DNA from: a virus
Lineage: Duplodnaviria; Caudoviricetes
Direction: 5' to 3' (one strand)
Length of the DNA: 64,000 nucleotides
IMG/VR virus record: IMGVR_UViG_3300044723_007969
In this document: one piece after another, positions 14,259-54,500 of the stretch
Numbering within the stretch: the stretch's first letter is position 1
Layout: every line of letters begins with the position of its first letter
Made by a program: the position numbers and the translations under genes
Notes under the pieces: generated by a model
Told to the model about the DNA's origin: nothing
The model's database searches: none
Seen by the model: the letters and a program-made list of their open reading frames with translations, nothing else

Positions 14259-14693
14259 TTATCTAACGTCGATGTTCGCTTTGTCGGAATCCTGACCTTC
14301 GTCAGTACCCTCTGCTTTAAGCGTGTAAGGTTTGCTACCTTCAGCACCGCCGGCAGTTACATAATGAATTGTGTTGTTGAAGAACTTACTTACGTAAGCA
14401 ACTGTTGAGTCATCTAAGATAACTTGTACACAGAATTCACCAACGCCACTCGTGTTGTCGTTCGCGAGTGAACCTGGAGCAACTGCTTTAAGCATCATTA
14501 CTACTTCAGTTGAATCTTCTAAGTGTATCTTGAATAACCTAGATGATCTTTGTGCAACAACGTAAGCCACTGTGGAATCAACTTTTGCTCCACCGAATGG
14601 TCTGTAAGCCGTAACCGCAATTTTACCAGAAAGGTCTCCGCCGAATGCGCCAGAGGCTCCTGATATCTTGTTTTTGTTTATTGGTCTTCCCAT
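14259..14693 (-). CDS. probable head-associated structural protein
   Basis: 144 aa, MGRPINK N-terminus, strong SD, codon bias like the capsid gene, downstream of the capsid gene. Confidence 0.55.
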   Translation of the reverse strand: MGRPINKNKISGASGAFGGDLSGKIAVTAYRPFGGAKVDSTVAYVVAQRSSRLFKIHLEDSTEVVMMLKAVAPGSLANDNTSGVGEFCVQVILDDSTVAYVSKFFNNTIHYVTAGGAEGSKPYTLKAEGTDEGQDSDKANIDVR

Positions 14694-14700
14694 TTGTTTT

Positions 14701-14801
14701 CTCCTTTAAAGGAGTCCAATCCTAGTTCTCCTAGGTACGCGGTTGTTATCCGCATAAGTCTTCTACAGTGGTAGAAGTACGTTTGAACTGTGTGTATTTA
14801 T
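14701..14801 (-). promoter_or_regulatory. late promoter plus structured 5' leader (four hairpins, last one occludes the SD)
   Basis: ATAAATA 14795-14801; stems CTTCTAC/GTAGAAG, TATGCGG/CCGCGTA, CCTAG/CTAGG, and palindrome CTCCTTTAAAGGAG. Confidence 0.6.
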
Positions 14802-25883: not shown

Positions 25884-26346
25884 GTTTGTAACCAAACCCA
25901 ATCCCATATTCGGTGACCTGCCGCCGTGCCCATTCGCACAGAAGGCCATAGTGGAAGATAAAGTCGAATTTGTCGAATTGAATGGCACTGGCAACTACAA
26001 CACATTATATCAGTTCATAACACAGTTTGATTTCGAAGAAAAAGATGTATTGTGTATGATCGCTGAACCCGATCAATTTTCCGCCAAAGAGACTGTCAGT
26101 ATAGCAAATGACTTGAATCGATATTTCATGAGGAAGGACATTGTTGTCCTGGAAGATCATCCAGAAATCAATGAGCACGTCGAGGATGTGAAATTGAACA
26201 ACGGCAAGTATATTTTATTTTTGGCACAGAGTTTAAGCAAGTTGAACAAATTCTCCAAGATGTTGGAGACCGGACCTTACTACAAGAATTGGTCTAAAGG
26301 TTATCTGGAATCAGTGAAAGGTTTCCGAGAGAAGAAAAGTCAGTAA
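25825..26346 (+). CDS. DUF1415-like protein
   Basis: W...FV.......PCPFA..A and DHP motifs; ATG 25825 with SD AAGGA. Confidence 0.55.
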   Translation: MTTQQKKQNPTQTIKNWISEFVTKPNPIFGDLPPCPFAQKAIVEDKVEFVELNGTGNYNTLYQFITQFDFEEKDVLCMIAEPDQFSAKETVSIANDLNRYFMRKDIVVLEDHPEINEHVEDVKLNNGKYILFLAQSLSKLNKFSKMLETGPYYKNWSKGYLESVKGFREKKSQ

Positions 26347-27067
26347 GTTTACTGTCCCTCCTACACAATCGTTTGTACTGTTTTTTGTTGGTGCTCCATT
26401 CGGTGCCGGTCCACCACTCGAATCCTCGATAGTTGGCCTTGTATTCCGACGACAGCTCGTAGCCTGATCCCATGTAGAAGTACCTCACGTAGTTCTCACT
26501 GGCCCACTCGATCTCCATGTCCAGCGTTATGTCACTTATGGGAACGGTGTTGGCATGGATCACACTCTCCAGACCCGCGAGGTCCTGGGAGTCATATGAG
26601 TCTATGGTGGAGTAGTTGTCTTCCTGGTACCTGTATCGTTTCTGTTTGGTGAATCCTATGATGTTGTCCGCGGTGCCGGTGTAGAACAGCATGAACTGAT
26701 CACGCCTGTGGTAGTGTCCGAAGGGATCGTAGTCCGCGCCAAATTTTTTCCGTTCCATGTACTGCTTGTATATGTGCGGCAGTCCCAACAGTTTGACCAT
26801 CTCACTTGCGTCGATAACCTTTATGCCGATCTGCTCGCCGGCGTGCGTGTGCGATTTGTATCTAGGACGCCATTTGTCCATGTTGATCCGTGTGCTACGT
26901 GATTGGTAGAATACCTCACGATGATTGTTTATGGGGTGGTCCAGTGCGAGCCAACCCCGGTCGATCGCTTCCGATTCCTCATCCTCGTCCACTATGGCCA
27001 TGGGTCGGCATATGACCAGATCCTGCTGTTCCTGTTTGCCGAATGTGTGGTCGAAGAGTAGTTCCAT
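26294..27067 (-). CDS. ATE/Bpt-like aminoacyl-tRNA--protein transferase (divergent)
   Basis: N-part RGW..FYQSRSTRI..W.P; C-part MEIEWA....YFYMGSGY..S.EYKANYRGFEWW...W resembles ATE_C; TAAATA 7 nt upstream. Confidence 0.6.
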   Translation of the reverse strand: MELLFDHTFGKQEQQDLVICRPMAIVDEDEESEAIDRGWLALDHPINNHREVFYQSRSTRINMDKWRPRYKSHTHAGEQIGIKVIDASEMVKLLGLPHIYKQYMERKKFGADYDPFGHYHRRDQFMLFYTGTADNIIGFTKQKRYRYQEDNYSTIDSYDSQDLAGLESVIHANTVPISDITLDMEIEWASENYVRYFYMGSGYELSSEYKANYRGFEWWTGTEWSTNKKQYKRLCRRDSKLTDFSSLGNLSLIPDNL

Positions 27068-27084
27068 TGTGTGATATTTAAGGT

Positions 27085-27520
27085 GCTGTCAGAGACGGCT
27101 TACGCCATCTGAAACTTCGCTTACGCTCGTTTCTTTTTTAACTTACGCAGTTGTAAAAAACTTGAACGCAGTGTGCGTTCTCTGTGGTAGATGAGCAGTC
27201 ACAATTCGGCTATTTCTAGCCGAACTGACTTAAACTCTGTGGTGAGTTCACAGTCACTATACATCGCTACTCTCGTCGGGCGGTTGTGCTGTACCCGTTT
27301 GCTCATTCATTACAACGCGAATCTACCAAACCCCTGTATAATGGTTTTTGGTAAATCTGAGGTCTATCTTTTTCTAGGAGCCTCATCATTTTTTGCTGTT
27401 TGCATCTAAGGATTCACCTGTCGCTTGTTAGCCGCATTTCCTTGCTCACTGGTTGCGATGCTATGTTTGCCTATGGGGAAATTTGTTTGCCTGGTGGAAG
27501 GATACGGTTGCCCTTCAACT
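27085..27520 (-). ncRNA. putative large structured non-coding RNA (alternatively a transcribed origin)
   Basis: ~440 nt with no credible ORF, about 10 stems, GAAA/GTAA tetraloops on the minus strand, internal repeats and its own sigma70-type promoter. Confidence 0.55.
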
Positions 27521-27522
27521 AC

Positions 27523-27551
27523 TATATAACACAGATAAAAATGTCAGTCAA
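27523..27551 (-). promoter_or_regulatory. sigma70-type promoter TTGACT-N17-TATATA with extended -10 TG
   Basis: minus strand TTGACTgacatttttatctgTGtTATATA pointing into the structured element. Confidence 0.6.
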
Positions 27552-27574
27552 TCTTTTTGGCTTTAAATACCGCT

Positions 27575-27982
27575 ATGCATTGGACGTACCAAGGAAATGA
27601 AATTACCAACATGCCGGAAGATGTTGTGGGATTTGTTTATCTCATAACAAATACAACCAACGGTAGGATGTACATAGGCAAGAAACTTGCTAGATTCAAG
27701 AGAAGTCGTCCACCACTCAAAGGCAGAAAGAACAAGCGTAGATACAAGGTTGATTCTGACTGGCAAGACTACTACGGTTCAAGCGATGATCTCACAATCG
27801 ATGTCAACAAAATTGGTAAAGATAAATTCACGAGGGAAATACTTTTCTACTGCAAGTCCAAGGCGGAACTATCTTATGTTGAGGCACGTGAACAGTTTGC
27901 ACGTAAGGTCCTAGAAACTAATGATTACTACAATGGTCATATCCGTGTGAGAGTACACGGCAAGGGAATAATCAAGTCATAA
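27575..27982 (+). CDS. GIY-YIG endonuclease (T4 endonuclease II / DenA-like)
   Basis: GFVYLITN..NGRMYIGKK, DW..YYGSS, F.REIL, E...Q, YYN; ATG 27575 lies 5 nt after TAAATA. Confidence 0.85.
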   Translation: MHWTYQGNEITNMPEDVVGFVYLITNTTNGRMYIGKKLARFKRSRPPLKGRKNKRRYKVDSDWQDYYGSSDDLTIDVNKIGKDKFTREILFYCKSKAELSYVEAREQFARKVLETNDYYNGHIRVRVHGKGIIKS

Positions 27983-28040: not shown

Positions 28041-28235
28041 TTACGCCGCTGTCTTCGCCGCGTTCTTGACTTCCTGAATTTCTTTTCTTCTTGCTTTGAT
28101 CAACTTAGACAGATTTGCCAATGCTTTTCTGGCTCTGGTAGCAGATGCTTTAACACCCTTCTCTACGAACTTACCATTCTCTTCTGAGTAAGTTTGAATC
28201 TCTGTCATGATCGATTCGTGTGTTTCATTTGACAT
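28041..28235 (-). CDS. histone H1-like Hc1-family DNA-binding protein
   Basis: F.EKGVKASATRARKAL..L.KL.K.RR; SD AAGGAG; TTGACA at 28312-28317 upstream. Confidence 0.75.
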   Translation of the reverse strand: MSNETHESIMTEIQTYSEENGKFVEKGVKASATRARKALANLSKLIKARRKEIQEVKNAAKTAA

Positions 28236-42000: not shown

Positions 42001-42535
42001 GAAGTCACTTTCTGATCAGATAGTGTATCATCCGGTCAAGTACAAGATACTTTTCGGTAGCAACGCGGACGAGGAATTACAAGCCACGTTCAAAGTAGTT
42101 AAGAATCCTAAAACCAATGTGACAGACGCAGTAATAAAGACAAGAGTAGTTGCGGCAATAAACGAATTCTTTGCACTGGACAACTGGGATTTTGGAGATA
42201 CATTTTATTTTACAGAATTAGCCGCTTACATACACAATCAATTGGCTCCGGATCTGTTGACAGCAGTGATAGTTCCTAACCAATCAGGACAGGGTTTTGG
42301 GTCTCTGTTCCAGATAGATTCAGCGTCAGACGAAATTTTCATCAGTGGGGCCACCGTTGGTGATGTAACAATAATAAGTGCATTGGGAGCCAATCAGTTA
42401 TTGGCATCCGGCACAGTTGTGACATCAACATCAACTGCCACGAACAATACTACATCAGGATCAGCAGTATCAGGCTCTACTACAACAACGTCCGGTTCAG
42501 GTTCAAACACCGGCAGTAGTGGATCAGGATACTAA
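39047..42535 (+). CDS. gp6: baseplate wedge subunit (gp6-like)
   Basis: DF..L...M..YL, E.FL.TA..R.SV..LA....Y, L.FGDG, QNR.IT..DY. Confidence 0.88.
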   Translation: MATTDRQNRLLVAEDWQKIYQSFQQADFKSYDFETLRRTMVAYLRENYPDDFNDFVESSEYVALIDLIAYIAQALSFRVDLNARENFLETAERRDSVLRLARLINYNAKRNRPATGLLKINSMSTTQDVVDSSGTNLSNQTVIWNDSANSNYREQFIAILNAANQTGQLFGNPRESGPIGGIDTEVYTLSSNQIDLPLFKYVKSIGGVSRQFEIVPSTINNSDSIYESDPIPGTGLTYTYRSDGGGDSSNNTGFFFLFKQGTMQYADFTVDTAITNYIRSITVNNINDSDVWLYKLDQFGQMSEKWTQVPALSGNNAIYNSLSGSERNIYNVVTKADDKIDLVFGDGTFSNLPLGSFRTYHRISDNVKYAITPADMQNVTLSVPYTDNFGAQQSLTLSVGLRQSVYNSAAAETSESIKEKAAQVYYSQNRMITAEDYQVVPLSASQEIVKVRSINRSASGISRAKEILDPSGAYSNVSVFADDGILYREESTQQFTFTFNNRGDIQSIMDGSIENKLKQPYSRHFYYFKYGTKDLSTLTATWNSTTTSTNTNTGYFTSTGALSIGDFATSNFKFAKPGALVKFTSPDTRGFLNDSLVTAGTDDAQDRKWAKIGALVGDGANSGVGNLESGVGPVTLSSVIPNGAVASAVIPNFTTSFAQDLELNMMDRIEQFEEFGLRYDINSETWKVITATNLSTSSVFSLDNTGDTSATNLDASWWFKFTNDGNTYTVTYRKLEYIFESESQNKFHYDTEEKIYDYKTGKSVKDTVKVLKTNSLISTGNSIGYPITWQVTDTVKEADGFQDNRKVKVGFYDDDDDGVVDNPELFDIIVEPTLSESTKFVFFEKYTSYDNISRFRPYAASNFVVTQNESDINLNTATYTDNQLFYFYASDEDVIKKYDLSTNTLSTTTDYLARKGRRSINFQYKHNAGQETRIDPSVSNIVDVYMLERTYDNLYRIWLQDGGVKPATSTSDQLRINYSGTLNPLKSLSDQIVYHPVKYKILFGSNADEELQATFKVVKNPKTNVTDAVIKTRVVAAINEFFALDNWDFGDTFYFTELAAYIHNQLAPDLLTAVIVPNQSGQGFGSLFQIDSASDEIFISGATVGDVTIISALGANQLLASGTVVTSTSTATNNTTSGSAVSGSTTTTSGSGSNTGSSGSGY

Positions 42536-45500
42536 TGGCAGATAACACAACTAATTCACTAACAAATAACGAAGTTGTCAAACAAGGCAACAACGAGTAC
42601 AGACGTACGGTTCAACATTTACCTGCTTTTTATAGAACAGACACTAACCAGAGGTTCCTTTCCAGCACCGTAGATCCTTTGATACAGAAAGGTGCACTTG
42701 AAAGACTAGACGGGTTCATAGGTAGACAAGACGCATACACAAGGCAAGTCACAGACAGATATGTTTCTGCAACCAATCGGGATAGATATGCATACCAACT
42801 GGAACCGGCAGTAACATACACAAACAGAGACACAACGTCGGTCAACCCAGAGGATCAGGTCAAGTTCACAGGTACGTATGATGATTACATCAACCAGATC
42901 AAGTACTTTGGAGGAAAAATCAATAATCACGACAGACTAAACAAAGAAAAAATATACAGTTGGAATCCTGCGATTGACTACGACAAACTGATCAATTACA
43001 GAGAGTATTACTGGATACCAGAGGGACCGGGATCCATAGAAATAGATTCTGTAGGACCAAATGCAGTGGCGGAATATTCAGTAGAGAATTTAGCACAAGG
43101 TGCCTACAACTTCTCACACAGGGAGAATGAAAACAATCCTATATTGACACTTTACAGAGGCAACACATACAAATTTAATGTAAACGCAAAAGGACATCCG
43201 TTCTACATAATGACTGAGCCATACAAGGACGGGTCGACAAATTTATTTTACACGTCAGGTGTGACCAATGCTGGCGCAGACACAGGGACAGTGACTTTTA
43301 CAGTGCCTACGGGAGCACCGGATATACTTTACTATCAGTGTGGTAATCATGATGCCATGTATGGTATCTTACAAATAAAAACTATCACGTCGACAACAGA
43401 AATCAATCCTGCCGATGACATAATAGGTGCAAAAAATTACAGTCTGAGAACTTTAGATCTTTCAAATGGTATGAAGATCAAGTTTCCGGCCAGCCTAGTG
43501 GGATCAGATTATCAGAACAGGGAATACTACGTTGAGGGCGTTGGAGATTCAATAACATTGACAGACGTTGATGACATGATAACTCCGGCCAGTTATTCCA
43601 CAGAGACGACAGTATTATATGATGCAGTTGGTTATGACACAAGACCTTATGCAAAGGCTTTCTACACACCAGACGCTAAAGATTACATAACAATTAAGAA
43701 GGATTCACGTGACCAGAACTCCTGGTCAAGATATAACAGATGGTTCCACAGATCTGTGATTGAAGAGACTGCTAGGGTTTCGGGTTTCACACCTGTACTG
43801 GATGAGGACAGCAGGGCAAAGAGACCCATAATTGAGTTTGATTCAGGACTAGCACTTTATAACCATGGTACGGTAGCCAAAAGATCCGTAACACTTTTTG
43901 ATACAGTAACGACAGATGCTTTCAGCAGTGTGGTCAAACAGACAGGTTATATCATTGATGGATTACCTGTAGAAGACGGAATGAGAGTTGTGTTTTCTGC
44001 AGACACTGATTCTACAGTTAAAAATAAAATATATGTCGTGAACTTTGTCACAGCAGGAGATTCCACACAGGTAATATCCTTAACAGAAGCATCAGACGGC
44101 ACACCAGCGGCCGACGAAAGTATTTTTATTGAGTTTGGTTCAGCAAACCAAGGAAACACATATCACTATGATGCAACATCTGAATCATGGAAATTATCTC
44201 AACAGAAGACCGGAGTGAACCAACAGCCGTTGTTCAAAATGTTCGACAACGAACATACTAGTTTCGACGATGCAACAACGTATCCCAACTCATCTTTCAC
44301 AGGTGCAACTGTTTTCAAATTTGCAACGTCGGATACAGCACCGACAGACACAGTATTGGGTATAAAAGTGAAATACAACACTGTCAACAACATCGGTGAC
44401 ATAGTGTTTGAATCAGATCATACATCTGGAACATTCACATACAAATTAGGTACTACAACATTTACAAAGAATCTCGCCGAGGGACATCTACACTATACAA
44501 CAAGCAGAACAACGCACAATTCTAGAAGTTCGTGGATACAGAGCACAAACCCTAGCAAACAACGAGTCATAAGGACTTTCACAGTTGGGAAAACAGAAAA
44601 AAAATTATTCCCTGTGGACTGTTATGACAAATCAGCATTATTGACCGATCTTGAAATTTCAGTTTCTGTGAATGGTGAGAAAAAATCGCTGACAACAGAT
44701 TACACATTAGTAAATGGTACTAAAAACAGATACGTAAAATTTGTCAAAGAACTTATTGTGGATGACCAAATAAGGTTATCTGTGTACAGTGCCGCCGACA
44801 AAGTGAAAGGCAAAGGCATTTATGAGGTTCCAGACAACTTGTCCACAAACAGCATGAATGGCAAGTTAGGCACATTCACTTATGGTCAGGTGTTGAGACA
44901 TGTAAGAGATATATTTGAGAAGAACACTAATCTCACAGGATCGGTGCCAGGTAGCACAAATTTAAGAGATAATCCAGACTCACGTTTTCTAGGTGGTACA
45001 ATACACCAACACGAAGGTCCATTACTGCCGGCAATATACGGGCTGATAGATCGAGATACTAATTTAATTAATGCCATTGAGTACACAGCTCATGAATATG
45101 AAAAATGGTATGATGCATTTCTGACACATATAACAGGTACTGCTTACGAGGGAGTTGCCGCTGATAGGGTGGATGAAATAATCAGCAGTATTACTACTGG
45201 AAGGAATTCGAGTTTTCCTTTCTACTATGAAGACATGTTGGGGTATGGAGAGAATGTTACAACTAGATCATACACGGTGTTGGGTGCATCACAGACAGAA
45301 TATGCAATAGATTCAATTCATGACATAACCAAAATAAGCAATAGGGCAGTGTACGTTTATCTTAATGATGTGCAGTTGTTGGTCGGCTCACAGTACACAT
45401 TCAGCACCACAGACGATAGTGTCAACATAACAGCAACACTTACCGAAGGAGATAGGATCGTAATAAAAGATTACGCAGACACAACAGGAAGTTACATGCC

Positions 45501-48500
45501 AACTTCACCGACCAAACTAGGCATGTATCCAAAGTTTACACCAGAAATATTCACGGATGACACATACATCACAAGCACGACAGTGATAAGAAAACATGAT
45601 GGATCCATAATTAAAGCATACGGTGACGAACGTGATTCTTTAATACTGGAATTAGAGAAAAGAATTTACAACAATCTTAAGACATCGTACGATAACACAC
45701 TTATCAACATAAATGACGTATTGCCAAATGTTTTTTCTTCAACGGAGTATACGGTAGATGAAATAAATGACATAATGGCAACAGATTTCTACTCATGGGC
45801 GGGACGTGGAAATGTACAATACATCAGTAACACAACATTCGTAGAAGGATCACCATTCACTTACAACTATGCACGATCAACATCCAACAAGTCAGGTGAC
45901 AAGTTGCCGGGATATTGGAGAGCCATATACAAAGAATATTACGACACAGATGCACCTCACGTGAGACCATGGGAGATGCTAGGACATTCAGAAAAGCCAA
46001 CAGATTGGGACACAACTTATGGAACTGCACCTTACACCTCAGGTAACAGTATTTTATGGAACAAAATTGCCACAGAGTCAGGAAGGTACGGCAAACCAGG
46101 CATACTAAATTACTTGCCGGTAGACACATCAGGTAACCTGCTCGACCCGTTGGCGATAGGGTTAGTGGACAACCTCGACGTGGCAGGCAGGTCAGCAGGA
46201 TGGAAGTTTGGTGATCAATCACCAGCAGAAACTGCCTGGAGGAGATCGTCAGCATATACTTTTTCAGTGATAAGAACATTGGCACTGACAAAACCCGCCA
46301 AGTTTTTCAGCAACTTATTTGATCCATCTAGATTGACAACAAATGTTGCAGGAAATCAGATAGACACAGACACAGGAGTCAGGTCCACACTGGCCACTTC
46401 TAAATATCACCTAGAGACTGTAACAGACAACAACACAGGAATAACGACGAGGTACCACACAGCGGGTTACCAGCCCTTTATTGTGAACCACTTGGTGTCA
46501 AAGAACCTTGATCCAAAAACTTTCTACTATGACAGGATGAAAAATCTTAAAGTTCAACTGGCATACAAATTGGGAGGATTCACTGACAAGGATAATATAA
46601 AAATATTAACAGATTCAGTATCTCCAGGATCAACATCAGGATCCAAGTTCATACCTGATGAGAACTACAAGATTTTATTCAGGACGTCAAACCCTGTTGA
46701 CAGTTTCCAATATTCGGGTGTACTGATTGAGAAGAACACGGATACAACAACAAAAACAGATGGTTCTACTGTAACAAATGTTGGTGGGTATAAAGTTCTA
46801 GGTTATTCAAAATCAAAACCGTATTTTAACTTCAATTATCCGATAAAGACCACAACTGCTTCAGCAGTGTCAGTGGAAGGTTCGGTGACAGTAGAGAAAT
46901 TTAACATCTACCAAGAAGCCACACAGACTGTGCCTTATGGGCATGTGTTCGACACCATACAGGATGTGGCTGACTTCTTGTTTGGATACGGACACTGGTT
47001 GGAAGACCAAGGGTTCCGCTTTAATAAGTTTTCAAAGGAACTGAAGGAAACATTGAACTGGTCAAACGCAGTTAGAGAATTCTTGTTCTGGACAACACAA
47101 CAATGGACACCAGGATCAGCGGTAACAGTATCACCTGCGGCAGACGGTTTCGAGTTAGACACAACAGACGGTATTGTAGGCAAAATGCGAAATCTTTCGG
47201 GAGACTATTCTATACTTGACTCCGGTGGAAGAAAAATAGATGTAAGAGAAATATCAACAAAGAGATTAGGTAAAACATTCGAGTTAGGAATCAAATCTGC
47301 AGATGTTGGACTATACAATATTGCTTTGAACACCGTACAGAAGGAACACATTCTGTTGTTTGACAACAGCACCGTGTTCTCGGATATCATATACGAACCA
47401 TACACAGGATTTAGACAAGAGAGATTAAAACTTGTTGGATGGAAAACAGCCGGATGGAACGGCGACTACTATGCTCCAGGGTTTGTGTTTGATGCCGCAC
47501 AGGTCACATACTGGTTGGCCAACACAGATTACAGGATCGGGGATTCAGTAGAGTATCAGGCCAAATTCTATGTGTCCAAGGCAAATCACAATTCGGGACC
47601 TAAGTTTGACATAGAGAATTGGACATTGAAAACAGAAAAACCAGCACCACAACTAATACCAAACTTCGAATACAAGATTTCACAATTCAATGATTTTTAC
47701 AATCTAGAAACGAACAACTTTGATGAATCTCAACAAAAGTTAGCACAGAGATTGATCGGGTATCAGTCAAGGGATTACTTAGAAAATCTTTTCGTCAACG
47801 ACGTATCACAGTACAAGTTCTATCACGGATTTATAAAGGAGAAAGGTACCAAAAATGCAATAGACAAGATACTCAAAGCCAAGTATGAGGGCGAGGACAT
47901 TGATCTAGATCTACATCCTGAATGGATGATAAGGACAGGAAATTTTGGTAACACAGATTCAACGGAAAGCATACAGATAACACTCAATCAAAATCAAATT
48001 ACTTCAGATCCTCAGAGCATTGAGCTACTAGAAAACACAAAAGACACGCCGGAGTACGCAAGATCAGAAGGTGTTGCTAAAGATAATTTTTTCTACAAGC
48101 CAGTGGAGTACACAACCTCAACAACGTTCAGTAGGTTGGATTACACTAAAGAAGGAGTTAATAGAGATACTGCACAGGTATTCAAGACTGCTGGCTATCC
48201 ACAGTTGGGACAGGTACAACACACAGCATTCAATATAACAGACATTTTCAACCTAGATGTAAACAGAGTTGCATCAAGCGAATTGATATGGGTGGCCAAT
48301 AAATCTAATAGAGATTGGGACGTGTTCAGGATCACAGCGGGAGATTTTAAAATTGCAACTGTGCGTTCAGTAAATGGTGCCTCGCAGTTGGAACTTATCT
48401 TCACAGGTTCACATGGATTGTCACAAGGTACACAGACAACAGAAGCAGATTACTTCGCTATAAGCAACAGCGAGGAAGAAACGCTTAATGGAGTTTATCA

Positions 48501-51500
48501 GGTCGCTTCGATAGTGGACCACAGGACTGTACTCATTGATTACACAGGTAATACATCTTTCATACCGGCATTGGAAGATGGATCGACTGCAGACACTTAT
48601 GGCAATGTCTATAAGTTTATATCTGTGAGAGTAGATTCCATGGACAACTGTAATGACAAAATAAACTATGACAAGTACAGGGATAGAGACAACAGCATAG
48701 AACGTGAGGGCGACAAGGTTTTCGCAGACGCAGACAGTTCGGGACTGTGGCGTGTTTATGAAAAGCAAGATCCATACACACTGAAAAACATTTTATCTCC
48801 AGATTCAGCAACGACCCAACAAGATTTTGGACACAGGATAGTTGCACGTAATGACGGAAGGACGGTGATCGCATCTGCACCTGGCAAAGCACAAGGGGAA
48901 GTACACTTCCTGTTCAGGTCCACAGCAACACCAGGGTCACTGTTCAGACCAAACTCAACGGTTACAACGACGGCCGGAAATGACAATACAAGTAAACTAG
49001 GTGAATCACTGTCGATGAGCACGGATGAGAACTTTGTTATTGCGGGTGCACCGTATGCCAATTCTCTTGGTTCAGATGGTAGCACAAGATTCGCAGACGC
49101 AGGAGCCATAGAGTTATTTGTGTGGGATCCGTCGACGTTCAAGTACGGAACACTAGTGACAAAGAGACCACCCACAGACCAGGCATCACAGAACTTTGGC
49201 TGGGCACACAAGATCGCTGAGCCAGGTGCAAGTTCAGTCAGAAGCACGCCAACAAAATACATGTTTGTGTCCGCACCTGGACTTAATTCAGACACGGGCA
49301 GAGTGTACATGTATGAGTGGGGTATAGGTGCTGATGGATCAACGTATGATTCATGGACTCAGTGTGCAACAATAGATTCAGCAGAAGGTGGATCAGGGCA
49401 GAGATTCGGTCACCGGTTGGAAGTCAACGACAACGGGGACATATTGGCTGTAAGTTCGATCGCACCAGGCAACGCAGGCAAGGTTGACATATTTGTTAGA
49501 TCATCACACTCCAATGACGATAGTGTGGCACATTCATTCACTCATGTACAAACACTGACAGGAGTATCAACAGATGGCTCTAGTTTGAACACACAATTTG
49601 GTGATTCCGTTGCAATGAGCAAAGACGGAACACGATTGATTATAGGAGCACCGGGCGTTGACAAAACAGAGCAAGACGATGCAGGTGCAATATATTATTA
49701 CAAATGGAACGCAGACGGTTCCACAAACACATACACATTACAACAGACCATGGAATCACCTGATTCCCAAGTCAACATGAGATTTGGAACGTCATTAAGC
49801 ATGAACCAAGCAGGCACCAGGTTGATCATAGGCGCACAGAATTTTTCAAACGTCAGAGAGATGAAGTTCGACGCCGGAGAAACAACATTCGATCTACAAG
49901 ACACAACAATATCAGATACCAACACAGAATCAGGCAGTGCCTACACGGCCACGATGTACAACACCAAATTTGTCATAGATGACAGATTGATCACGGATAG
50001 TGTGTCAGCACACGACGGGTTCGGCAAAGGAGTTTGTGTCACAGACAACACAGTGCTGGTAGGAGCGCCACAGGATGATGGCAACATCGCATCGGACGGA
50101 AGTAGCAGGGTGCAGAACGACGGAACACTGTCGTGTTTTGATCTATCTGTTTCAGGGGAATATGCATGGAAAAATATAACTTTTGAGACACCGTTGATCG
50201 ACATAGAGAAGGCCGGACAGGTATTTGATTTCAACAACAAAACTAAACAAATAAGAGATTTCTATGACCTTTATGATCCAGTGCAAGGTCGTATATTGGG
50301 GGTAGCAGATCGTGAAATCAATTACAAGACAGAGTGGGATCCAGCGACCTACAACACAGGCCAAGACGAAAATACAAAAACACCATGGGCGGAGGAACAC
50401 CTGGGAGAAGTATGGTGGGATCTATCTCAGGTAAAATGGCTTTGGTATGATCAAGGTACACAAGAATACAAATTTAATCACTGGGGACAGAAATTTCCAG
50501 GATCGACAATAGACATATATGAATGGACAGAGTCACCCGTGCTTCCAAGCGTATGGAACACCAGGTCTGGCACACAACAAGGAGCAGTGGAAGGCATATC
50601 AGGAATAGCCGCGTATGGTGATGACTCTAGTTATAACATAGTTCAGAGATATAACTCTTCCGTCAACAGATTTGTGAACATCTATTACTTCTGGGTAAGG
50701 AACAGATCAACTGTACCTACAAATAGTGTTGTGACGAGAAAGAACTCCACATCATTCGTGTCAAACCTTATAGACTTTCCGGAAAGATTTTCATACAAGT
50801 ATTACTCTATAACAGACACCAACATGTTGATCATCAACAAGATAGGCGCACTGACAAACAGTGACATTGTTCTCAACATAGACATCCGGACAAACAACTT
50901 CGAGGGCGATTCACACAGCGTATGGAAACTGGCGAAAGAGGGTGATAAGGACTGGAGACCAGGACATCAGATAGAGACACGTTGGTGGGATTCACTCACA
51001 GGCAAGAACGTAGCAGGTGATATTGTTCCTGATCTAGACCTACCGGTCAACAGGAGATATGGAAACAACATAAGACCTAGGCAGGGGTGGTATGTGAACA
51101 GGTTCAATGCATTGAAAGAAATAATAGATTATGCAAATGATGTGTTGAAGAAACATCAACTAGTAGGAACAATCAATCTTAACAACTTAAACTCTGCTGA
51201 TCCAGAACCAACAGCACAGAGTTTAGAATGGGACGCATATGTAGACACCTACGCAGAATTGACATACATCGACACTAGAGAGTTCTCTGGAACAGTCAAC
51301 TATCTTGTGAAGGCGGACGAAACGGCCAATAATTATTGGGCAATATATACTTGGGACGGTACTGAATGGACTAGGACAAAATTACAAACTTACAACACCT
51401 CCGCTTATTGGGGTTACACAGATTGGTATCAAGTACTGGAACATCATGGTGAGACAGGTATGGTACATGATGCAAATACAAAAATTGACAAACAGGTGAC

Positions 51501-54500
51501 ATATCAGTATGAATTGGATACATTGGATCTTGCTGTTGGCAAACATGTAAAAGTGACATCAGCCGACACGGGTGGATGGAAACTGTTCATGAAAACAGCA
51601 ACAGGATGGAGCAACGTTGGAACAGAAAACGGCACAATTAGATTAAAAACAACACTGTATGATTATTCCCAGGATGCCACGGGATTTGCAGGACAGGACA
51701 GTTTCGACGACAATTTCTTTGATCAGGATCCGTCAACAGAAACTAGAAAAATTTTAACAGCACTCAGAGATGATCTTTTCATCAATGATTTAGCGATAGA
51801 ATACAACACATTGTTCTTCACCGGACTTAGAAAGGTTCTAGAAGAACAAACATATGTGGACTGGATGTTCAAAACATCTTTTATCAATATTAAGAATTCT
51901 GTAAGGAAACTAGATCAGAGAAAAACTTACACCATAGGCACCGACAGTTGGATAGAGAGTTACATAAATGAAGTTAAACCTTTCCACACAACGATTAGGG
52001 AGTACAAGTTAGGTTACACAAACACAGACACACATGATGGTATATTCTCTGACTTTGATAATCCAACGTTCTATGACCCAGAGACGAACGCTATAAGATC
52101 TTTAAACGTTGACTCGGACACGGACAAGTTGACCGAATTCCCACACCAGATGTGGTATGACTACCATAAGAAATACGTGCAGTCCATCACAGTGACACAC
52201 GGAGGTTCAGGATATCAACAGATACCGATAGTTACGGTGCTCGGCGGAACAACAGGATCCACAGGACCTTTCCAGATACAGGCTACAAGTTCATCAGGCA
52301 CAACAAGTGGACAGTTTGGTTACTACTATCCTTTGTTCACAAACGAGAAACAAGCAGAGATTTATGACACACAGAATGGTGGAACTGGCACAACGAAGAC
52401 TTACACGTTCGATGGCTATCCGGGTTCTTTCTATGGACCAACGGCATCAACAGCAGAATCAACAAGTGACAAGTCTGGGGCCTTCAAGATGTACATAACA
52501 CCAACAAACACTGCGGCAACAGCCACAGCGACAATACAGAATGGTGCAGTCACAAAGATAACTGTCACGGGAATTGGTGCAAATTACAACAGCACTCCTG
52601 TGGTGATAATATCCGGGGGACGAACGGACGGTTCAACACCAACAGACACTGCCAAGGCATACGCAAATTTGAACAATGACTTGGTCAGAGATCTAGATAC
52701 AACAATAAAATTTGACAGGGTGTCTAGCACGTCCAGGGTACAGGACTGGACGGCGTCTACGGCGTACGCTTACAATGATCTAATTAGACACAAAAATCAA
52801 TTGTACAAAGTGACAAAAGCGTTTACGGCAACAACCGATTTTGATGACAATGTAGCAGATCTTTACAAGGTTTATGGAGATGAGACAGGTTTAACAGCCG
52901 CTGACAGGACAAAAGGTTTCTACACGCCAGGCACAGGAATGCCGGGCAACGAACTTGACCAGGTCATGACAGGTATCGACTACGGCGGAACAATGGTGAC
53001 AGGATTGCTGTTCAACCAGAGCCAAGGGTGGGACAGATCGGGTTGGTATGATTTTCCATGGGACAACTATGGAGGTTCTAGAGTCAAGGCATTCAAGGGA
53101 GATGGTTCATCTAACACCTTCACATTTGATACCGCACCTGCAACAACAGAAGTTTATCAAGTCTATATAACAGAAGATGACAGCACAAGGAGAAAACTCA
53201 CAGATGTTGTGAGGGGTGATGGGTCAAGCGTGGTCATGCCTGTTGGCGGATTGAGTATAACACCGAACGCAAACGCATTGGTAGAATTCATACCGTTCGA
53301 TGACGACGGTGTGTTGACACCGACAGATGACAGGACATTGGATTCCATAGTCAAAGGTGGACTTTTTGGATCAGCATTAGGACATGCACCTAGTGATATA
53401 ATGTTAGAAGGCGACGACTTTGTATCACCAGATACTAGTTACGCACCTGAAGAGACTGTGCCAGGTCAGTTGTTTGACACATTAGACATAAAAGTTTACA
53501 CATCACCAGAGTCAGGAGTTCCATTTATCAGCGAGAAAAATTACACAGGAAATGGAAGCACAACAACTTTCGCCATAGGAGACTTTCCAGGAACATTGGG
53601 ATCAGTGACAGTGAGTGTTGGTGGCGTTGTGAAAAAACTAACAACAGATTACACAATCAATGTTGCAAACAAAACAATAACATTTGGATCGGCACCTGCT
53701 AACGGCAGTGTAATAGCAACTAGGGTTTTTGCTATATCAGGGGATAATTACAGGGTGCTTGACACATTCGTTGGAGATAATTCAACAGTATCGTTTACGA
53801 CTTCGTCAAGAAGTGAGTTCAATCTAGATTCAACTGTATCAGACATATACGTGACACAGGATGGAGTACCAAGGACAGATTTTACACGAACCATTACAGC
53901 GAATACGGTTACAATAACTTTCAATTCACCGGTACCACCGACAGGTGCCTTTATACAGGTTGCAGGATTCAACAAGTCAGCAAGTTCTCCAACAAGGAGT
54001 TTTGCAAGTATAAGGAATCAAGAACTAACATATGCAAGTGGAACGAACAGATACACATTGACATATCCACCAGGTTCTATAGGTCCATTCTCAGGTTTGA
54101 CAACAGTGGAAGTAAACGGTAGGGTGCTACGAGGACCAGACAACACGTATTATGTTGGTGACGGAAGCACATACACTTATGGAGTAGTGTCAGGTCTAGA
54201 GGATGATTCCACAGTTGACCCAGCAAAAACAATTTCATCTGCTTCGCAGGTAGAAGTTTATGTGAACGGAACTAAGAAAGATTTAAACACCGACTACACA
54301 GTTGATATAGGAAATCAAAATATAGAGTTTGTTACATCAGCAGTACCAACATCAACAGATGTAATCTGTATTTCAACTTTAGTTGATCATCAGTACTTTA
54401 ATCAAGGCACAGATATCATATTGGTACCTAGTGCTATAACTTCACCGTATTCACTTTCAAACAGCGACAAGATTTCAGTAACAACATTTAATAATGCTTT

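What the first reader, a model, noticed from the sequence alone, without database searches (positions are those of the whole stretch)
27085..27551. Promoter-driven, highly structured ~440-nt non-coding element between an ATE-like transferase and a GIY-YIG nuclease
Seen: the longest gene-free stretch in a gene-dense window. A minus-strand TTGACT-N17-TATATA promoter with extended -10 points into it. Read on the minus strand it is almost all stems: GAAGG/CCTTC, GCATC/GATGC, TGAGG/CCTCA, ATTTACCAAA/TTTGGTAGAT, long-range ATGAGCA/TGCTCAT, CGGG/CCCG, TTCGGCTA-GAAA-TAGCCGAA (27205-27224), GAACGCA/TGCGTTC (27164-27180), and three terminal GCGTAAG hairpins (27093-27152). GNRA loops occur only on that strand. 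It also has AGGCAAACA twice and two 23-nt repeats GTGACTG-N7-ACCACAGAG 55 nt apart (27180-27202, 27235-27257). I do not recognise it as tRNA, tmRNA, RNase P or an intron. Inference: a new large phage ncRNA, possibly a partner of the divergent GIY-YIG nuclease or the downstream tRNA-dependent transferase. Alternative: a transcribed R-loop replication origin with ssDNA mini-hairpins.
Basis: partly seen in the sequence, partly recalled or inferred. Interest (0 to 1): 0.88.

Follow-up and report, generated by a model that had tools for sequence, protein, structure and literature searches.

The report
Twin-box structured RNA of giant phages
The gene-free gap holds a real gene for an RNA of about 425 bases, folded and knotted, that is in no RNA catalogue and is common in uncultured aquatic giant phages; it shows the same short word twice, and the two copies always change together, so it probably grips two copies of an outside partner that is still unknown.

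Summary
Window 27516-27093 (minus strand) is a separately promoted gene for a pseudoknotted non-coding RNA.

- **Conservation:** it is 79-97% identical in over 250 IMG/VR and metagenome loci, even where the neighbouring protein is only 47-49% identical.
- **Structure:** my 83-pair model forms standard pairs in 96% of cells, against 30-37% for slid controls. 33 pairs change on both sides.
- **Known families:** nothing in Rfam 15 matches. ARAGORN finds no tRNA or tmRNA. No cellular genome carries it.
- **Twin boxes:** the 6-nt word ACCACA occurs at 27243-27238, in a hairpin loop, and at 27188-27183, in a junction. It takes about 9 forms across relatives and switches at least 14 times on the RNA tree. 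The two copies are identical in all but one of about 190 unique RNAs. No complement exists in the RNA, within 3 kb, or as a covarying site in a complete 328-kb relative.
- **Neighbours:** the downstream 257-aa gene folds like aminoacyl-tRNA-dependent transferases (ATE1, FemX, MprF). It stays beside the RNA in three orientations, so the RNA is not simply its leader.
- **Function:** unknown. My best reading is a trans-acting RNA whose two identical seeds base-pair with an external partner.

This scan had already noted the same family on other DNA (38 notes, at least 34 genomes).

The parts
27523..27551 (-). Promoter of the RNA: -35 TTGACT (27551-27546), 17-nt spacer, TGT + TATATA (27528-27523)
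   Evidence: Sequence. A -35 TTGAC plus a -10-like hexamer at 14-18 nt is found in 70 of 102 unique homologues, and the upstream block AAAGCCAAAAAGATTGAC is conserved. The start of transcription is inferred, not measured.
27093..27516 (-). Twin-box RNA gene, about 425 nt. The 5' end is inferred from the promoter; the 3' end is taken as the end of conservation.
   Evidence: 79-97% identity in about 60 loci. Conservation profile. Covariation.
27497..27516 (-). P0, 5' hairpin GAAGG-GCAACCGTAT-CCTTC. Present only in one promoter-proximal subtype.
   Evidence: Variants GAAGG/CCTTC, GATAG/CTATC, GATGG/CCATC and GTTGG/CCAAC.
27465..27492 (-). Two AGGCAAAC boxes (27492-27485 and 27472-27465). Related copies lie before P2 and before P5.
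   Evidence: Their role is unknown. Pairing of the second box with the first UGACUG is 84-99% paired but shows no double changes.
27402..27461 (-). P1 domain: GCATC/GATGC enclosing AAGGA/TCCTT and a small GNRA-type hairpin; holds the invariant GGTGAAT
   Evidence: Helices 1 and 2 (100% and 99.6% paired; 2 pairs with double changes).
27358..27385 (-). P2 hairpin TGAGG...CCTCA with an inner 2-bp helix and an AGAAAAAG loop
   Evidence: Helices 3 and 4. Pair 27383-27360: AT:47, GC:46.
27321..27356 (-). P3 long hairpin. Its loop (27341-27335, TTATACA) forms the pseudoknot.
   Evidence: Helix 5: 11 of 12 pairs change on both sides.
27257..27263 (-). 3' strand of the pseudoknot (TGTATAG), pairing with the P3 loop 27341-27335
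   Evidence: Helix 6: 99.4% paired, 3 pairs with double changes, e.g. UA:26 and CG:18. Mutual information between columns.
27277..27297 (-). P5: CGGG/CCCG stem with a 13-nt loop TACAGCACAACCG. The loop is identical in all 46 aligned homologues. It also lay inside the exact pattern used for the wider scans, so those add no test of its constancy.
   Evidence: Closing pair CG:33, UA:13.
27231..27256 (-). Module 1: UGACUG (27256-27251), then hairpin P7 (TGAACTC/GAGTTTA) with box 1 ACCACA (27243-27238) in its loop
   Evidence: 58 of 99 unique RNAs have at least 5 closing pairs. Stems vary: GAACUC/GGGUUC, GAUACA/UGUAUC, UACUC/GGGUA. Helix 10 is 82% paired.
27202..27227 (-). P8: 11-bp hairpin with a GAAA tetraloop, lying between the two modules
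   Evidence: Helix 12: 100% paired, 4 pairs with double changes.
27183..27201 (-). Module 2: UGACUG (27201-27196), CTCATCT, then box 2 ACCACA (27188-27183), single-stranded or closed by only 3 bp
   Evidence: Box columns covary with box 1 as identical letters (CC:78 GG:22; CC:82 AA:9 TT:7 GG:3; AA:83 GG:18).
27155..27180 (-). P9: variable, terminator-like hairpin GAACGCA-CAC-TGCGTTC followed by a U run. Absent in some relatives.
   Evidence: It is variable, and missing in L058, L060 and L061. Helix 13.
27093..27133 (-). 3' domain: P10 (GAAAC...GTTTC with an inner GC-GTAA-GC) and P11 (AGATGGC-GTAA-GCCGTCT)
   Evidence: Helices 14-16. This domain stays with the RNA when other genes are inserted before the 257-aa gene.
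27575..27982 (+). Divergent neighbour: small GIY-YIG nuclease, catalytic domain only. ATG 27575 is the likely start; the ORF listing gives TTG 27557.
   Evidence: PF19835, E = 2e-36. Conserved start ATGCATTGG in relatives. Divergent and adjacent in 116 of 153 loci.
26294..27067 (-). Downstream neighbour: 257-aa protein with the fold of aminoacyl-tRNA-dependent transferases
   Evidence: No Pfam or PHROG hit. AlphaFold2 model, pLDDT 77. Foldseek top hits are ATE1, L-PGS/MprF, FemX and Sba18.

Best explanation
The gap encodes an independently transcribed, trans-acting structured RNA of giant aquatic phages. A sigma-70-type promoter (27551-27523) drives an RNA of about 425 nt. It folds into about 16 helices locked by a pseudoknot between the loop of P3 and the strand just before the first UGACUG. 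This rigid scaffold shows the same 6-nt word twice: once in the loop of hairpin P7 and once in the junction after P8. In each module the word follows an invariant UGACUG. I infer that the two words are seeds that base-pair with two copies, or two sites, of an external nucleic acid. That partner differs between phage lineages or hosts, so the words change often but must stay identical.

Shown: the RNA gene, its fold, the pseudoknot, the twin identity and its repeated switching, and the absence of an internal or nearby complement.

Inferred: the start and end of the transcript, action in trans, base pairing as the way the words are read, and the nature of the partner.
For: Conservation:
- The RNA is 79-97% identical in about 60 loci, including loci where the flanking protein is 47-49% identical.

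Structure:
- 23 compensatory pairs by RNAalifold.
- The curated structure is 96.2% paired against 30-37% for slid controls, with 33 double-change pairs against 5-8, and 0 of 500 shuffles reaching the observed values.
- The pseudoknot pairs show UA:26/CG:18 and similar.

Twin boxes:
- The twin-box columns covary as identical letters and have no Watson-Crick partner column.
- About 9 word forms exist.
- The word changes at least 14 times on a tree of 176 unique RNAs built with the boxes masked.
- Only 1 unique RNA has unequal boxes.
- Box 1 sits in a hairpin loop whose stem covaries.

Own transcription unit:
- The promoter is conserved.
- The RNA keeps its 3' domain when 0.7-2.1 kb is inserted before the next gene.
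- The transferase-like gene lies downstream on the same strand, upstream on the opposite strand, or downstream on the opposite strand in different subfamilies.

Near-identical flanking proteins coexist with different words. That argues against those proteins reading the word.
Against: - No partner was found. There is no complement of 5 nt or more in the RNA for the two commonest words. No enrichment or fixed position appears within 3 kb.
- In a complete 328-kb relative, the only 7-mers that covary with the box between related genomes are the boxes themselves.
- A dimeric protein reader, or contacts between copies in an RNA multimer, could also keep the two words equal.
- Six nucleotides is a short seed.
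- The tree count of 14 changes may be inflated by recombination between RNA alleles, which one search suggests does occur.
Confidence: 0.45

Rival explanations
1. tRNA-gripping scaffold. Box positions 3-5 act like a codon and the invariant A after them stacks on or pairs with U33. The RNA would then hold two tRNAs of one kind by their anticodon loops. It would do this either for the neighbouring aminoacyl-tRNA-dependent transferase-like protein, or to shield or sequester host tRNAs during infection.
For: - The words read xx-NNN-A, with NNN = CAC, UAC, GAC, AUG, GUG or GGC, and position 6 is always A.
- Box 1 sits in a 6-7-nt hairpin loop suited to loop-loop pairing.
- The neighbouring 257-aa protein has the fold of ATE1, FemX and MprF. 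It stays beside the RNA in three orientations.
- A phage enzyme that uses charged tRNA is on record (Mu Mom, PMC13219725).
Against: - Positions 1-2 of the word also stay identical between the boxes, yet they would face the purine at tRNA position 37 and position 38. In the AG- forms they could not pair.
- There is no match to the T-box model, and I saw no UGGN bulge.
- Distant homologues of the transferase lack the RNA.
- I chose the reading frame after seeing the data.
- No tRNA genes occur in the window or in four large related contigs. The three tRNAs of the complete relative (Thr-UGU, Trp-CCA, Arg-ACG) do not match its box AGAUGAG.
Confidence: 0.15
2. Protein-binding or self-assembling architectural RNA. 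The two words would be read by a dimeric protein, or would form equivalent contacts in a multimer of the RNA, as in the ROOL and GOLLD cages. Identity would be kept by symmetry rather than by base pairing with a target.
For: - It is a large, ornate, phage-borne RNA with several GNRA loops and repeated boxes (AGGCAAAC two to four times, UGACUG twice).
- No nucleic-acid partner was found.
- Precedent: ROOL and GOLLD form RNA-only assemblies (bioRxiv 10.1101/2024.12.08.627333, listed).
Against: - At least 14 switches of a 6-nt word are hard to follow for a protein reader.
- The flanking proteins stay 94-98% identical across a word change.
- The words are not self-complementary, so they cannot kiss each other.
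- There is no Rfam match to ROOL or GOLLD.
Confidence: 0.15
3. Cis-acting leader or riboswitch of the downstream 257-aa gene. The terminator-like hairpin P9 and the competing strands would act as the expression platform.
For: - The RNA lies directly upstream on the same strand in 89 of 127 loci.
- P9 is a hairpin followed by a U run.
- There are hints of mutually exclusive pairings: UGAAU and CGAAU compete for GUUCG, and UCAUCU and the 3' strand of P11 compete for AGAUG.
Against: - In other subfamilies the gene lies upstream or on the other strand.
- Genes are inserted between the RNA and the gene in L023, L024, L029 and L055.
- P9 is variable, or absent.
- The conserved 3' domain lies after P9.
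- The evidence for the alternative pairings rests on two clades only.
Confidence: 0.07
4. A DNA-level element: a replication origin with an R-loop or single-stranded DNA hairpins, or the target region of a homing endonuclease, rather than a functional RNA.
For: - It is next to a GIY-YIG nuclease gene and to recombination genes (Rad50- and Mre11-like).
- RNA alleles and flanking genes evolve out of step, which suggests local gene conversion.
Against: - Compensatory changes keep pairs on one strand only, with many G-U pairs (UG:36, GU:40 and others). These would be A-C mismatches on the other strand.
- The fold z-score favours the minus strand.
- There is no turn in GC skew here.
- A conserved promoter points into the element.
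Confidence: 0.03

Closest known systems
'Twin-box structured RNA' noted earlier in this scan (unpublished AI notes, e.g. e1-3440727, e1-5374581, e1-5374588)
   Same: The same family. It shares look-alike sequence words, the invariant hairpin, the pseudoknot, two always-identical variable boxes, a neighbouring small GIY-YIG gene, and hosts that are uncultured aquatic giant or T4-like phages.
   Different: This is another genome. New here:
- box 1 is shown in a hairpin loop;
- the word switches at least 14 times;
- a search of a complete genome finds no target;
- the neighbouring 257-aa protein has the fold of aminoacyl-tRNA-dependent transferases and keeps its place in three orientations.
GOLLD (RF01998) and ROOL (RF03087) RNAs
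   Same: Large, intricately folded non-coding RNAs of unknown function carried by phages and prophages, with their own transcription units.
   Different: - No sequence or structure match.
- Smaller: about 425 nt, against roughly 580-800 nt from my own knowledge.
- Not next to tRNA genes.
- Whether it forms multimers is untested.
- As far as I know, neither family has twin covarying words.
T-box leader RNAs (RF00230)
   Same: If the codon reading holds, both use a structured RNA whose variable triplet, followed by a conserved purine, selects one tRNA. The neighbouring gene here is related to aminoacyl-tRNA use.
   Different: - No match to the model.
- No T-box sequence or UGGN bulge was seen.
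- There are two words instead of one.
- It is not fixed upstream of the gene.
- It occurs in phages rather than in Firmicutes operons.
Two-guide RNAs: archaeal C/D box sRNAs and IS110 bridge RNAs (comparison from my own knowledge)
   Same: One folded RNA shows two short single-stranded guide segments in repeated modules next to invariant motifs.
   Different: - Those RNAs carry two different guides; here the two are identical.
- No fibrillarin/Nop5/L7Ae genes or IS110 recombinase genes were seen.
- No target has been found.
Polynucleobacter-1 RNA motif (RF01718), named as closest by earlier notes
   Same: A candidate structured RNA from fresh-water and estuary sequences (PMC2864571).
   Different: No match in this RNA at E up to 10. 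No match at the RNA locus in five related phage records; the only weak hit (13.7 bits, E = 0.056) lies elsewhere in one record.

Membership tests
Twin-box RNA (this scan's own provisional family) | Invariant hairpin CGGG-UACAGCACAACCG-CCCG | tested here: met
   Window 27297-27277. The same 19-mer occurs in more than 118 IMG/VR loci and more than 120 metagenome loci.
Twin-box RNA (this scan's own provisional family) | Two identical variable words, each after UGACUG, about 55 nt apart | tested here: met
   ACCACA at 27243-27238 and 27188-27183. Identity covariation.
Twin-box RNA (this scan's own provisional family) | Pseudoknot between a hairpin loop and the strand before the first module | tested here: met
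   27341-27335 with 27263-27257; 99.4% paired, 3 pairs with double changes.
GOLLD / ROOL / HEARO / OLE / raiA and all other Rfam 15 families | Score at or above the family's gathering cut-off | tested here: not met
   The whole window gives only freshwater-2, elsewhere. Region 26900-27750 at E up to 10 gives two chance snoRNA hits. Eight divergent loci give none.
GOLLD / ROOL | RNA-only multimeric cage | not testable with these tools
   Needs native gels or cryo-EM.
tRNA / tmRNA | Cloverleaf or tRNA-like domain with a tag reading frame | tested here: not met
   ARAGORN finds 0 genes in the window.
Group I / group II intron | Match to the intron model, and a host gene split by the element | tested here: not met
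   No Rfam hit. The flanks are a complete 257-aa gene starting 25 nt after the RNA, and a divergent nuclease gene.
T-box leader (RF00230) | Match to the model; specifier loop plus T-box bulge; terminator/antiterminator upstream of the regulated gene | tested here: not met
   No hit at E up to 10. The position relative to the gene is not fixed.
Polynucleobacter-1 (RF01718) | Match to the 141-position model | tested here: not met
Aminoacyl-tRNA-dependent transferases (ATE / FemABX / MprF C-domain) for the neighbouring 257-aa protein | Fold of this superfamily (top Foldseek matches all belong to it) | tested here: met
   Foldseek: 8tzv ATE1 E = 2e-6; 4v36, 1ne9, 5vrv, 7duw, 7tif, 9wqy. TM 0.35-0.49. 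Model pLDDT 77.
Aminoacyl-tRNA-dependent transferases (ATE / FemABX / MprF C-domain) for the neighbouring 257-aa protein | Sequence-level match to ATE_N/ATE_C, FemAB or DUF2156 profiles | tested here: not met
   No Pfam family at E up to 0.01. No PDB sequence match.
Aminoacyl-tRNA-dependent transferases (ATE / FemABX / MprF C-domain) for the neighbouring 257-aa protein | Transfer of an amino acid from charged tRNA | not testable with these tools
   Needs an enzyme assay.

The most novel reading that the evidence does not exclude
The RNA is a new kind of dual-seed phage RNA that seizes two molecules of one specific host tRNA by their anticodon loops. The box would read as two flanking nucleotides, a codon, then an invariant A. 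Most forms are NAC codons (His, Tyr, Asp), which belong to the queuosine-family tRNAs. The RNA would either feed these tRNAs to the neighbouring aminoacyl-tRNA-dependent transferase or shield them from host anticodon nucleases. The frequent word switches would then reflect retargeting in an arms race.
Probability: 0.1. Interest if true: 0.92.

Novelty: new member of a known kind. Interest (0 to 1): 0.72.

Why it matters
Large structured RNAs with unknown jobs are rare, and studying them has repeatedly exposed new biochemistry. This one is abundant in uncultured marine and freshwater giant phages, and its promoter looks like the kind a host polymerase reads. It also carries a feature I know from no described RNA class: two short words that mutate often but always together. 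That feature makes the function testable. The words can be changed singly or jointly, and they can serve as bait to find the partner. The nearby gene, with the fold of enzymes that use charged tRNA, adds a concrete lead. If the partner is a host tRNA or a defence RNA, the RNA would be a new tool of phage takeover or counter-defence.

Tried and rejected
- **Rfam.** The whole window at gathering scores, the region at E up to 10, and eight divergent loci gave no family for this RNA. RF01718 searched directly in five related phage records gave no match at the RNA.
- **ARAGORN.** No tRNA or tmRNA.
- **Cultured phages.** blastn (distant mode) of the region gave no match. tblastn of the 257-aa protein gave no match.
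- **Cellular genomes.** The 19-mer scan of 185,579 species genomes gave 7 hits. Four are full RNA copies on small contigs binned into unrelated MAGs. Three are chance matches in GC-rich coding DNA. None gave a host clue.
- **Internal partner for the boxes.** Mutual information found no Watson-Crick partner column. No complementary 5-mer exists in 55 ACCACA and 16 GCCACA RNAs.
- **Nearby target.** No enrichment of the own-word complement over other words in 859 kb of flanks. No positional peak within 3 kb.
- **The word ACCACAG in the window.** 22 copies against 12.7 expected, but most lie on the sense strand of genes.
- **Complete relative G005 (328 kb) against G006 and G007.** 28 sites of the 7-mer against 40 expected. 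Only the boxes themselves covary. One candidate, at 305,635, lies on the sense strand of a gene.
- **Coding reading.** Antisense frames are not kept open in relatives; the shortest open stretch is 15 aa. The two ORFs in the gap have no PHROG hit.
- **Long-range ATGAGCA/TGCTCAT helix.** Weak support.
- **Possible switch (UGAAU and CGAAU competing for GUUCG).** Rests on two clades only, so I keep it as tentative.
- **Reads and genome.** No whole genome is held for the window.
- **PDB sequence searches.** Neither the 257-aa profile nor the nuclease gave a useful hit.
Full report
**What is there.** Between the 257-aa gene (26294-27067, minus strand) and the small GIY-YIG gene lies about 500 nt with no conserved reading frame. 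The GIY-YIG gene is on the plus strand, ends at 27982, and most likely starts at ATG 27575. The minus strand folds better than shuffled controls (z = -3.4), while the plus strand gives z = -1.7.

**It is conserved as RNA.**
- A search with the 257-aa protein brought in 78 IMG/VR loci. In about 60 of them the gap is 79-97% identical to the window. This holds even in L058, L060 and L061, where the protein is only 47-49% identical.
- The invariant 19-mer GGGTACAGCACAACCGCCC then found more than 118 viral loci and more than 120 metagenome loci.
- RNAalifold on 46 MAFFT-aligned copies predicted 71 pairs, 23 of them with compensatory changes.
- Mutual information between columns of 102 unique copies recovered the hairpins. 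It also found a pseudoknot between the loop of P3 (27341-27335) and 27263-27257.
- My curated model has 83 pairs in 16 helices. It is paired in 96.2% of cells, against 30-37% when the partners are slid by 1-3 columns. It has 33 pairs with changes on both sides, against 5-8 for slid partners. No shuffle out of 500 reaches the observed values for percentage paired, double-change pairs or covariation score.
- Many pairs are G-U, so the constraint is on the minus-strand transcript and not on DNA.

**Anatomy (RNA strand, window coordinates).**
- Promoter: TTGACT 27551-27546, 17 nt, TGT-TATATA 27528-27523.
- P0: 27516-27497.
- Two AGGCAAAC boxes: 27492-27485 and 27472-27465.
- P1 domain: 27461-27402.
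- P2: 27385-27358.
- P3: 27356-27321.
- Conserved joining strand: 27320-27298.
- P4: 27302/27301 with 27267/27266.
- P5: 27297-27277, with its invariant 13-nt loop.
- P6: 27276-27269.
- Pseudoknot 3' strand: 27263-27257.
- Module 1: UGACUG 27256-27251, then hairpin P7 27250-27231 with ACCACA 27243-27238 in its loop.
- P8: 27227-27202, with a GAAA loop.
- Module 2: UGACUG 27201-27196, CUCAUCU, then ACCACA 27188-27183.
- P9: a variable, terminator-like hairpin 27180-27164 followed by a U run.
- P10: 27133-27111. P11: 27110-27093.

Relatives show two promoter-proximal subtypes. Both have a -35 TTGACY and a -10-like hexamer, TATAAACA or GTTATATAG. 70 of 102 unique copies fit a simple -35/-10 pattern. 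The transcript ends are inferred.

**The twin boxes.**
- Columns 27243-27241 and 27188-27186 covary as identical letters: AA:83 GG:18; CC:78 GG:22; CC:82 AA:9 TT:7 GG:3. They have no Watson-Crick partner column.
- Across about 190 unique RNAs the 6-nt word is ACCACA, GCCACA, AGCACA, AGUACA, ACUACA, AGAUGA, ACAUGA or ACGUGA. In a distant subfamily the shared word is GACAA or GGCAA. Both copies always carry the same word.
- Only L193 has unequal boxes, ACAACA against ACCACA.
- On a tree of 176 unique RNAs built with the boxes masked, the word changes at least 14 times; the minimum for 8 states is 7. Recombination between alleles could inflate this figure.
- Box 1 sits in the loop of a hairpin whose stem changes in a compensatory way: GAACUC/GGGUUC, GAUACA/UGUAUC, UACUC/GGGUA. 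Box 2 has at most a 3-bp local closure.

**Search for the partner.**
- No complement of 5 nt or more, G-U pairs allowed, exists anywhere in the RNA for the two commonest words.
- The complement of each RNA's own word is not enriched in 859 kb of flanks and has no preferred position within 3 kb.
- I fetched a complete relative, G005 (328,292 bp, box AGAUGAG), and two related fragments, G006 and G007 (box AGAUGAU). G005 carries one copy of the RNA. The 7-mer and its complement occur 28 times against 40 expected. The only sites that follow the G-to-U difference between the genomes are the boxes themselves.
- So a partner, if it is a nucleic acid, is probably encoded by the host, or it pairs over fewer positions than I could detect.

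**Context.**
- The locus order in relatives is Rad50-like, Hc1-like, GIY-YIG, RNA, 257-aa gene, then a 184-aa gene on the other strand.
- The nuclease is the divergent neighbour in 116 of 153 loci with enough flank. In others it is displaced or absent.
- The nuclease is only about 136-141 aa, the catalytic domain alone.
- The 257-aa protein has no Pfam or PHROG match. Its AlphaFold2 model (pLDDT 77) matches human and yeast ATE1, L-PGS/MprF, FemX and Sba18, which are all aminoacyl-tRNA-dependent transferases.
- A profile of this protein finds it downstream on the same strand in the main family. It lies upstream on the opposite strand in the L081 group. A shorter relative lies downstream on the opposite strand in subfamily B. 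This argues against a simple leader role and is compatible with a functional link. It could also be plain synteny. Distant homologues (25-32% identical) have no RNA and no gap.
- Loci with 94-98% identical flanking proteins carry AGUACA instead of ACCACA, and their RNA is only 83% identical. So the flanking proteins do not track the word, and RNA alleles seem to be exchanged between phages.
- The closest cultured relatives by the Rad50-like protein are PA5oct-like jumbo phages, at 49.5% identity. Related contigs of 87-197 kb are rated 24-55% complete, and one complete genome is 328 kb. These are therefore giant phages.

**What it is not.**
- No Rfam 15 family matches, including GOLLD, ROOL, RNase P, tmRNA, introns, T-box and Polynucleobacter-1.
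- ARAGORN finds nothing.
- No cellular genome holds it. Four copies in MAGs lie on small contigs assigned to unrelated phyla, and three further hits are chance matches in coding DNA.
- The GC skew gives no sign of an origin at this position.

**Reading.** The best-supported explanation is a trans-acting structured RNA that offers two identical seeds to an outside partner. I put 0.45 on this mechanism and about 0.95 on the RNA gene itself. A narrower form of the idea is that the seeds pair with tRNA anticodon loops. It is prompted by the codon-plus-A pattern (CAC, UAC, GAC, AUG, GUG, each followed by an invariant A), by the loop display of box 1, and by the neighbouring gene for an enzyme of the charged-tRNA-using type. 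A phage enzyme that uses charged tRNA to modify DNA was reported recently (Mu Mom, PMC13219725). However, the two 5' positions of the word are unexplained by this idea, and I chose the reading frame after seeing the data, so I give it 0.15. Protein reading or self-assembly gets 0.15, a cis leader 0.07, and a DNA-level element 0.03.

**Novelty.** The family is absent from Rfam, and I found no paper describing it in two literature searches. Its kind, a large ornate phage RNA of unknown function, is known. The twin covarying words are a feature I know from no described class. This scan had already noted the same family on other DNA, in 38 notes covering at least 34 genomes. Those notes were used as leads only.

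Noticed in passing
window 14691-14777 (-): A full-length match to the freshwater-2 RNA motif (RF02980): 75.6 bits against a cut-off of 49.9. It lies directly upstream of ORF 14259-14693 (-).
   Followed up: no
window 26294-27067 (-): The 257-aa protein has no Pfam or PHROG family, but its predicted fold matches aminoacyl-tRNA-dependent transferases (ATE1, FemX, MprF/L-PGS, Sba18). It has no homologue in cultured phages.
   Followed up: partly
window 27557-27982 (+): The GIY-YIG protein is only the catalytic domain (PF19835) with no DNA-binding domain. Its likely start is ATG 27575 (MHWTYQG), conserved in relatives, and not the TTG at 27557.
   Followed up: partly
window 28041-28235 (-): A 64-aa histone H1-like Hc1 protein (PF07432, E = 3e-12) sits between the Rad50-like gene and a strong hairpin-plus-T-run terminator at 28011-27988.
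   Followed up: no
window 42535-55425 (+): A single open reading frame of 4296 aa lies in the plus-strand gene block.
   Followed up: no
L193 (IMG/VR locus): The only RNA copy of about 190 whose two boxes differ: ACAACA against ACCACA. It may be an intermediate of a word switch, or a sequencing error.
   Followed up: no
L002, L003 compared with L058, L060: The RNA and its flanking genes evolve out of step. In L002 and L003 the proteins are 94-98% identical to the window's while the RNA is 83% identical and carries a different word. In L058 and L060 the protein is 48% identical while the RNA is 80% identical. This suggests exchange of RNA alleles, perhaps helped by the adjacent nuclease.
   Followed up: partly
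G005 = IMGVR_UViG_3300021964_000012 (loci L334-L350): A complete 328,292-bp relative has one RNA copy about 14 kb from one end and three tRNA genes (Thr-UGU, Trp-CCA, Arg-ACG). It is classed as having direct terminal repeats, but its first and last 50-2000 bases are not identical in my check.
   Followed up: partly
window 27309-27305, 27225-27221 and 27208-27204: UGAAU upstream has the same sequence as the 3' strand of P8 and could pair with its 5' strand instead. The three positions change together in two clades. This may be a conformational switch, but the evidence is thin.
   Followed up: partly
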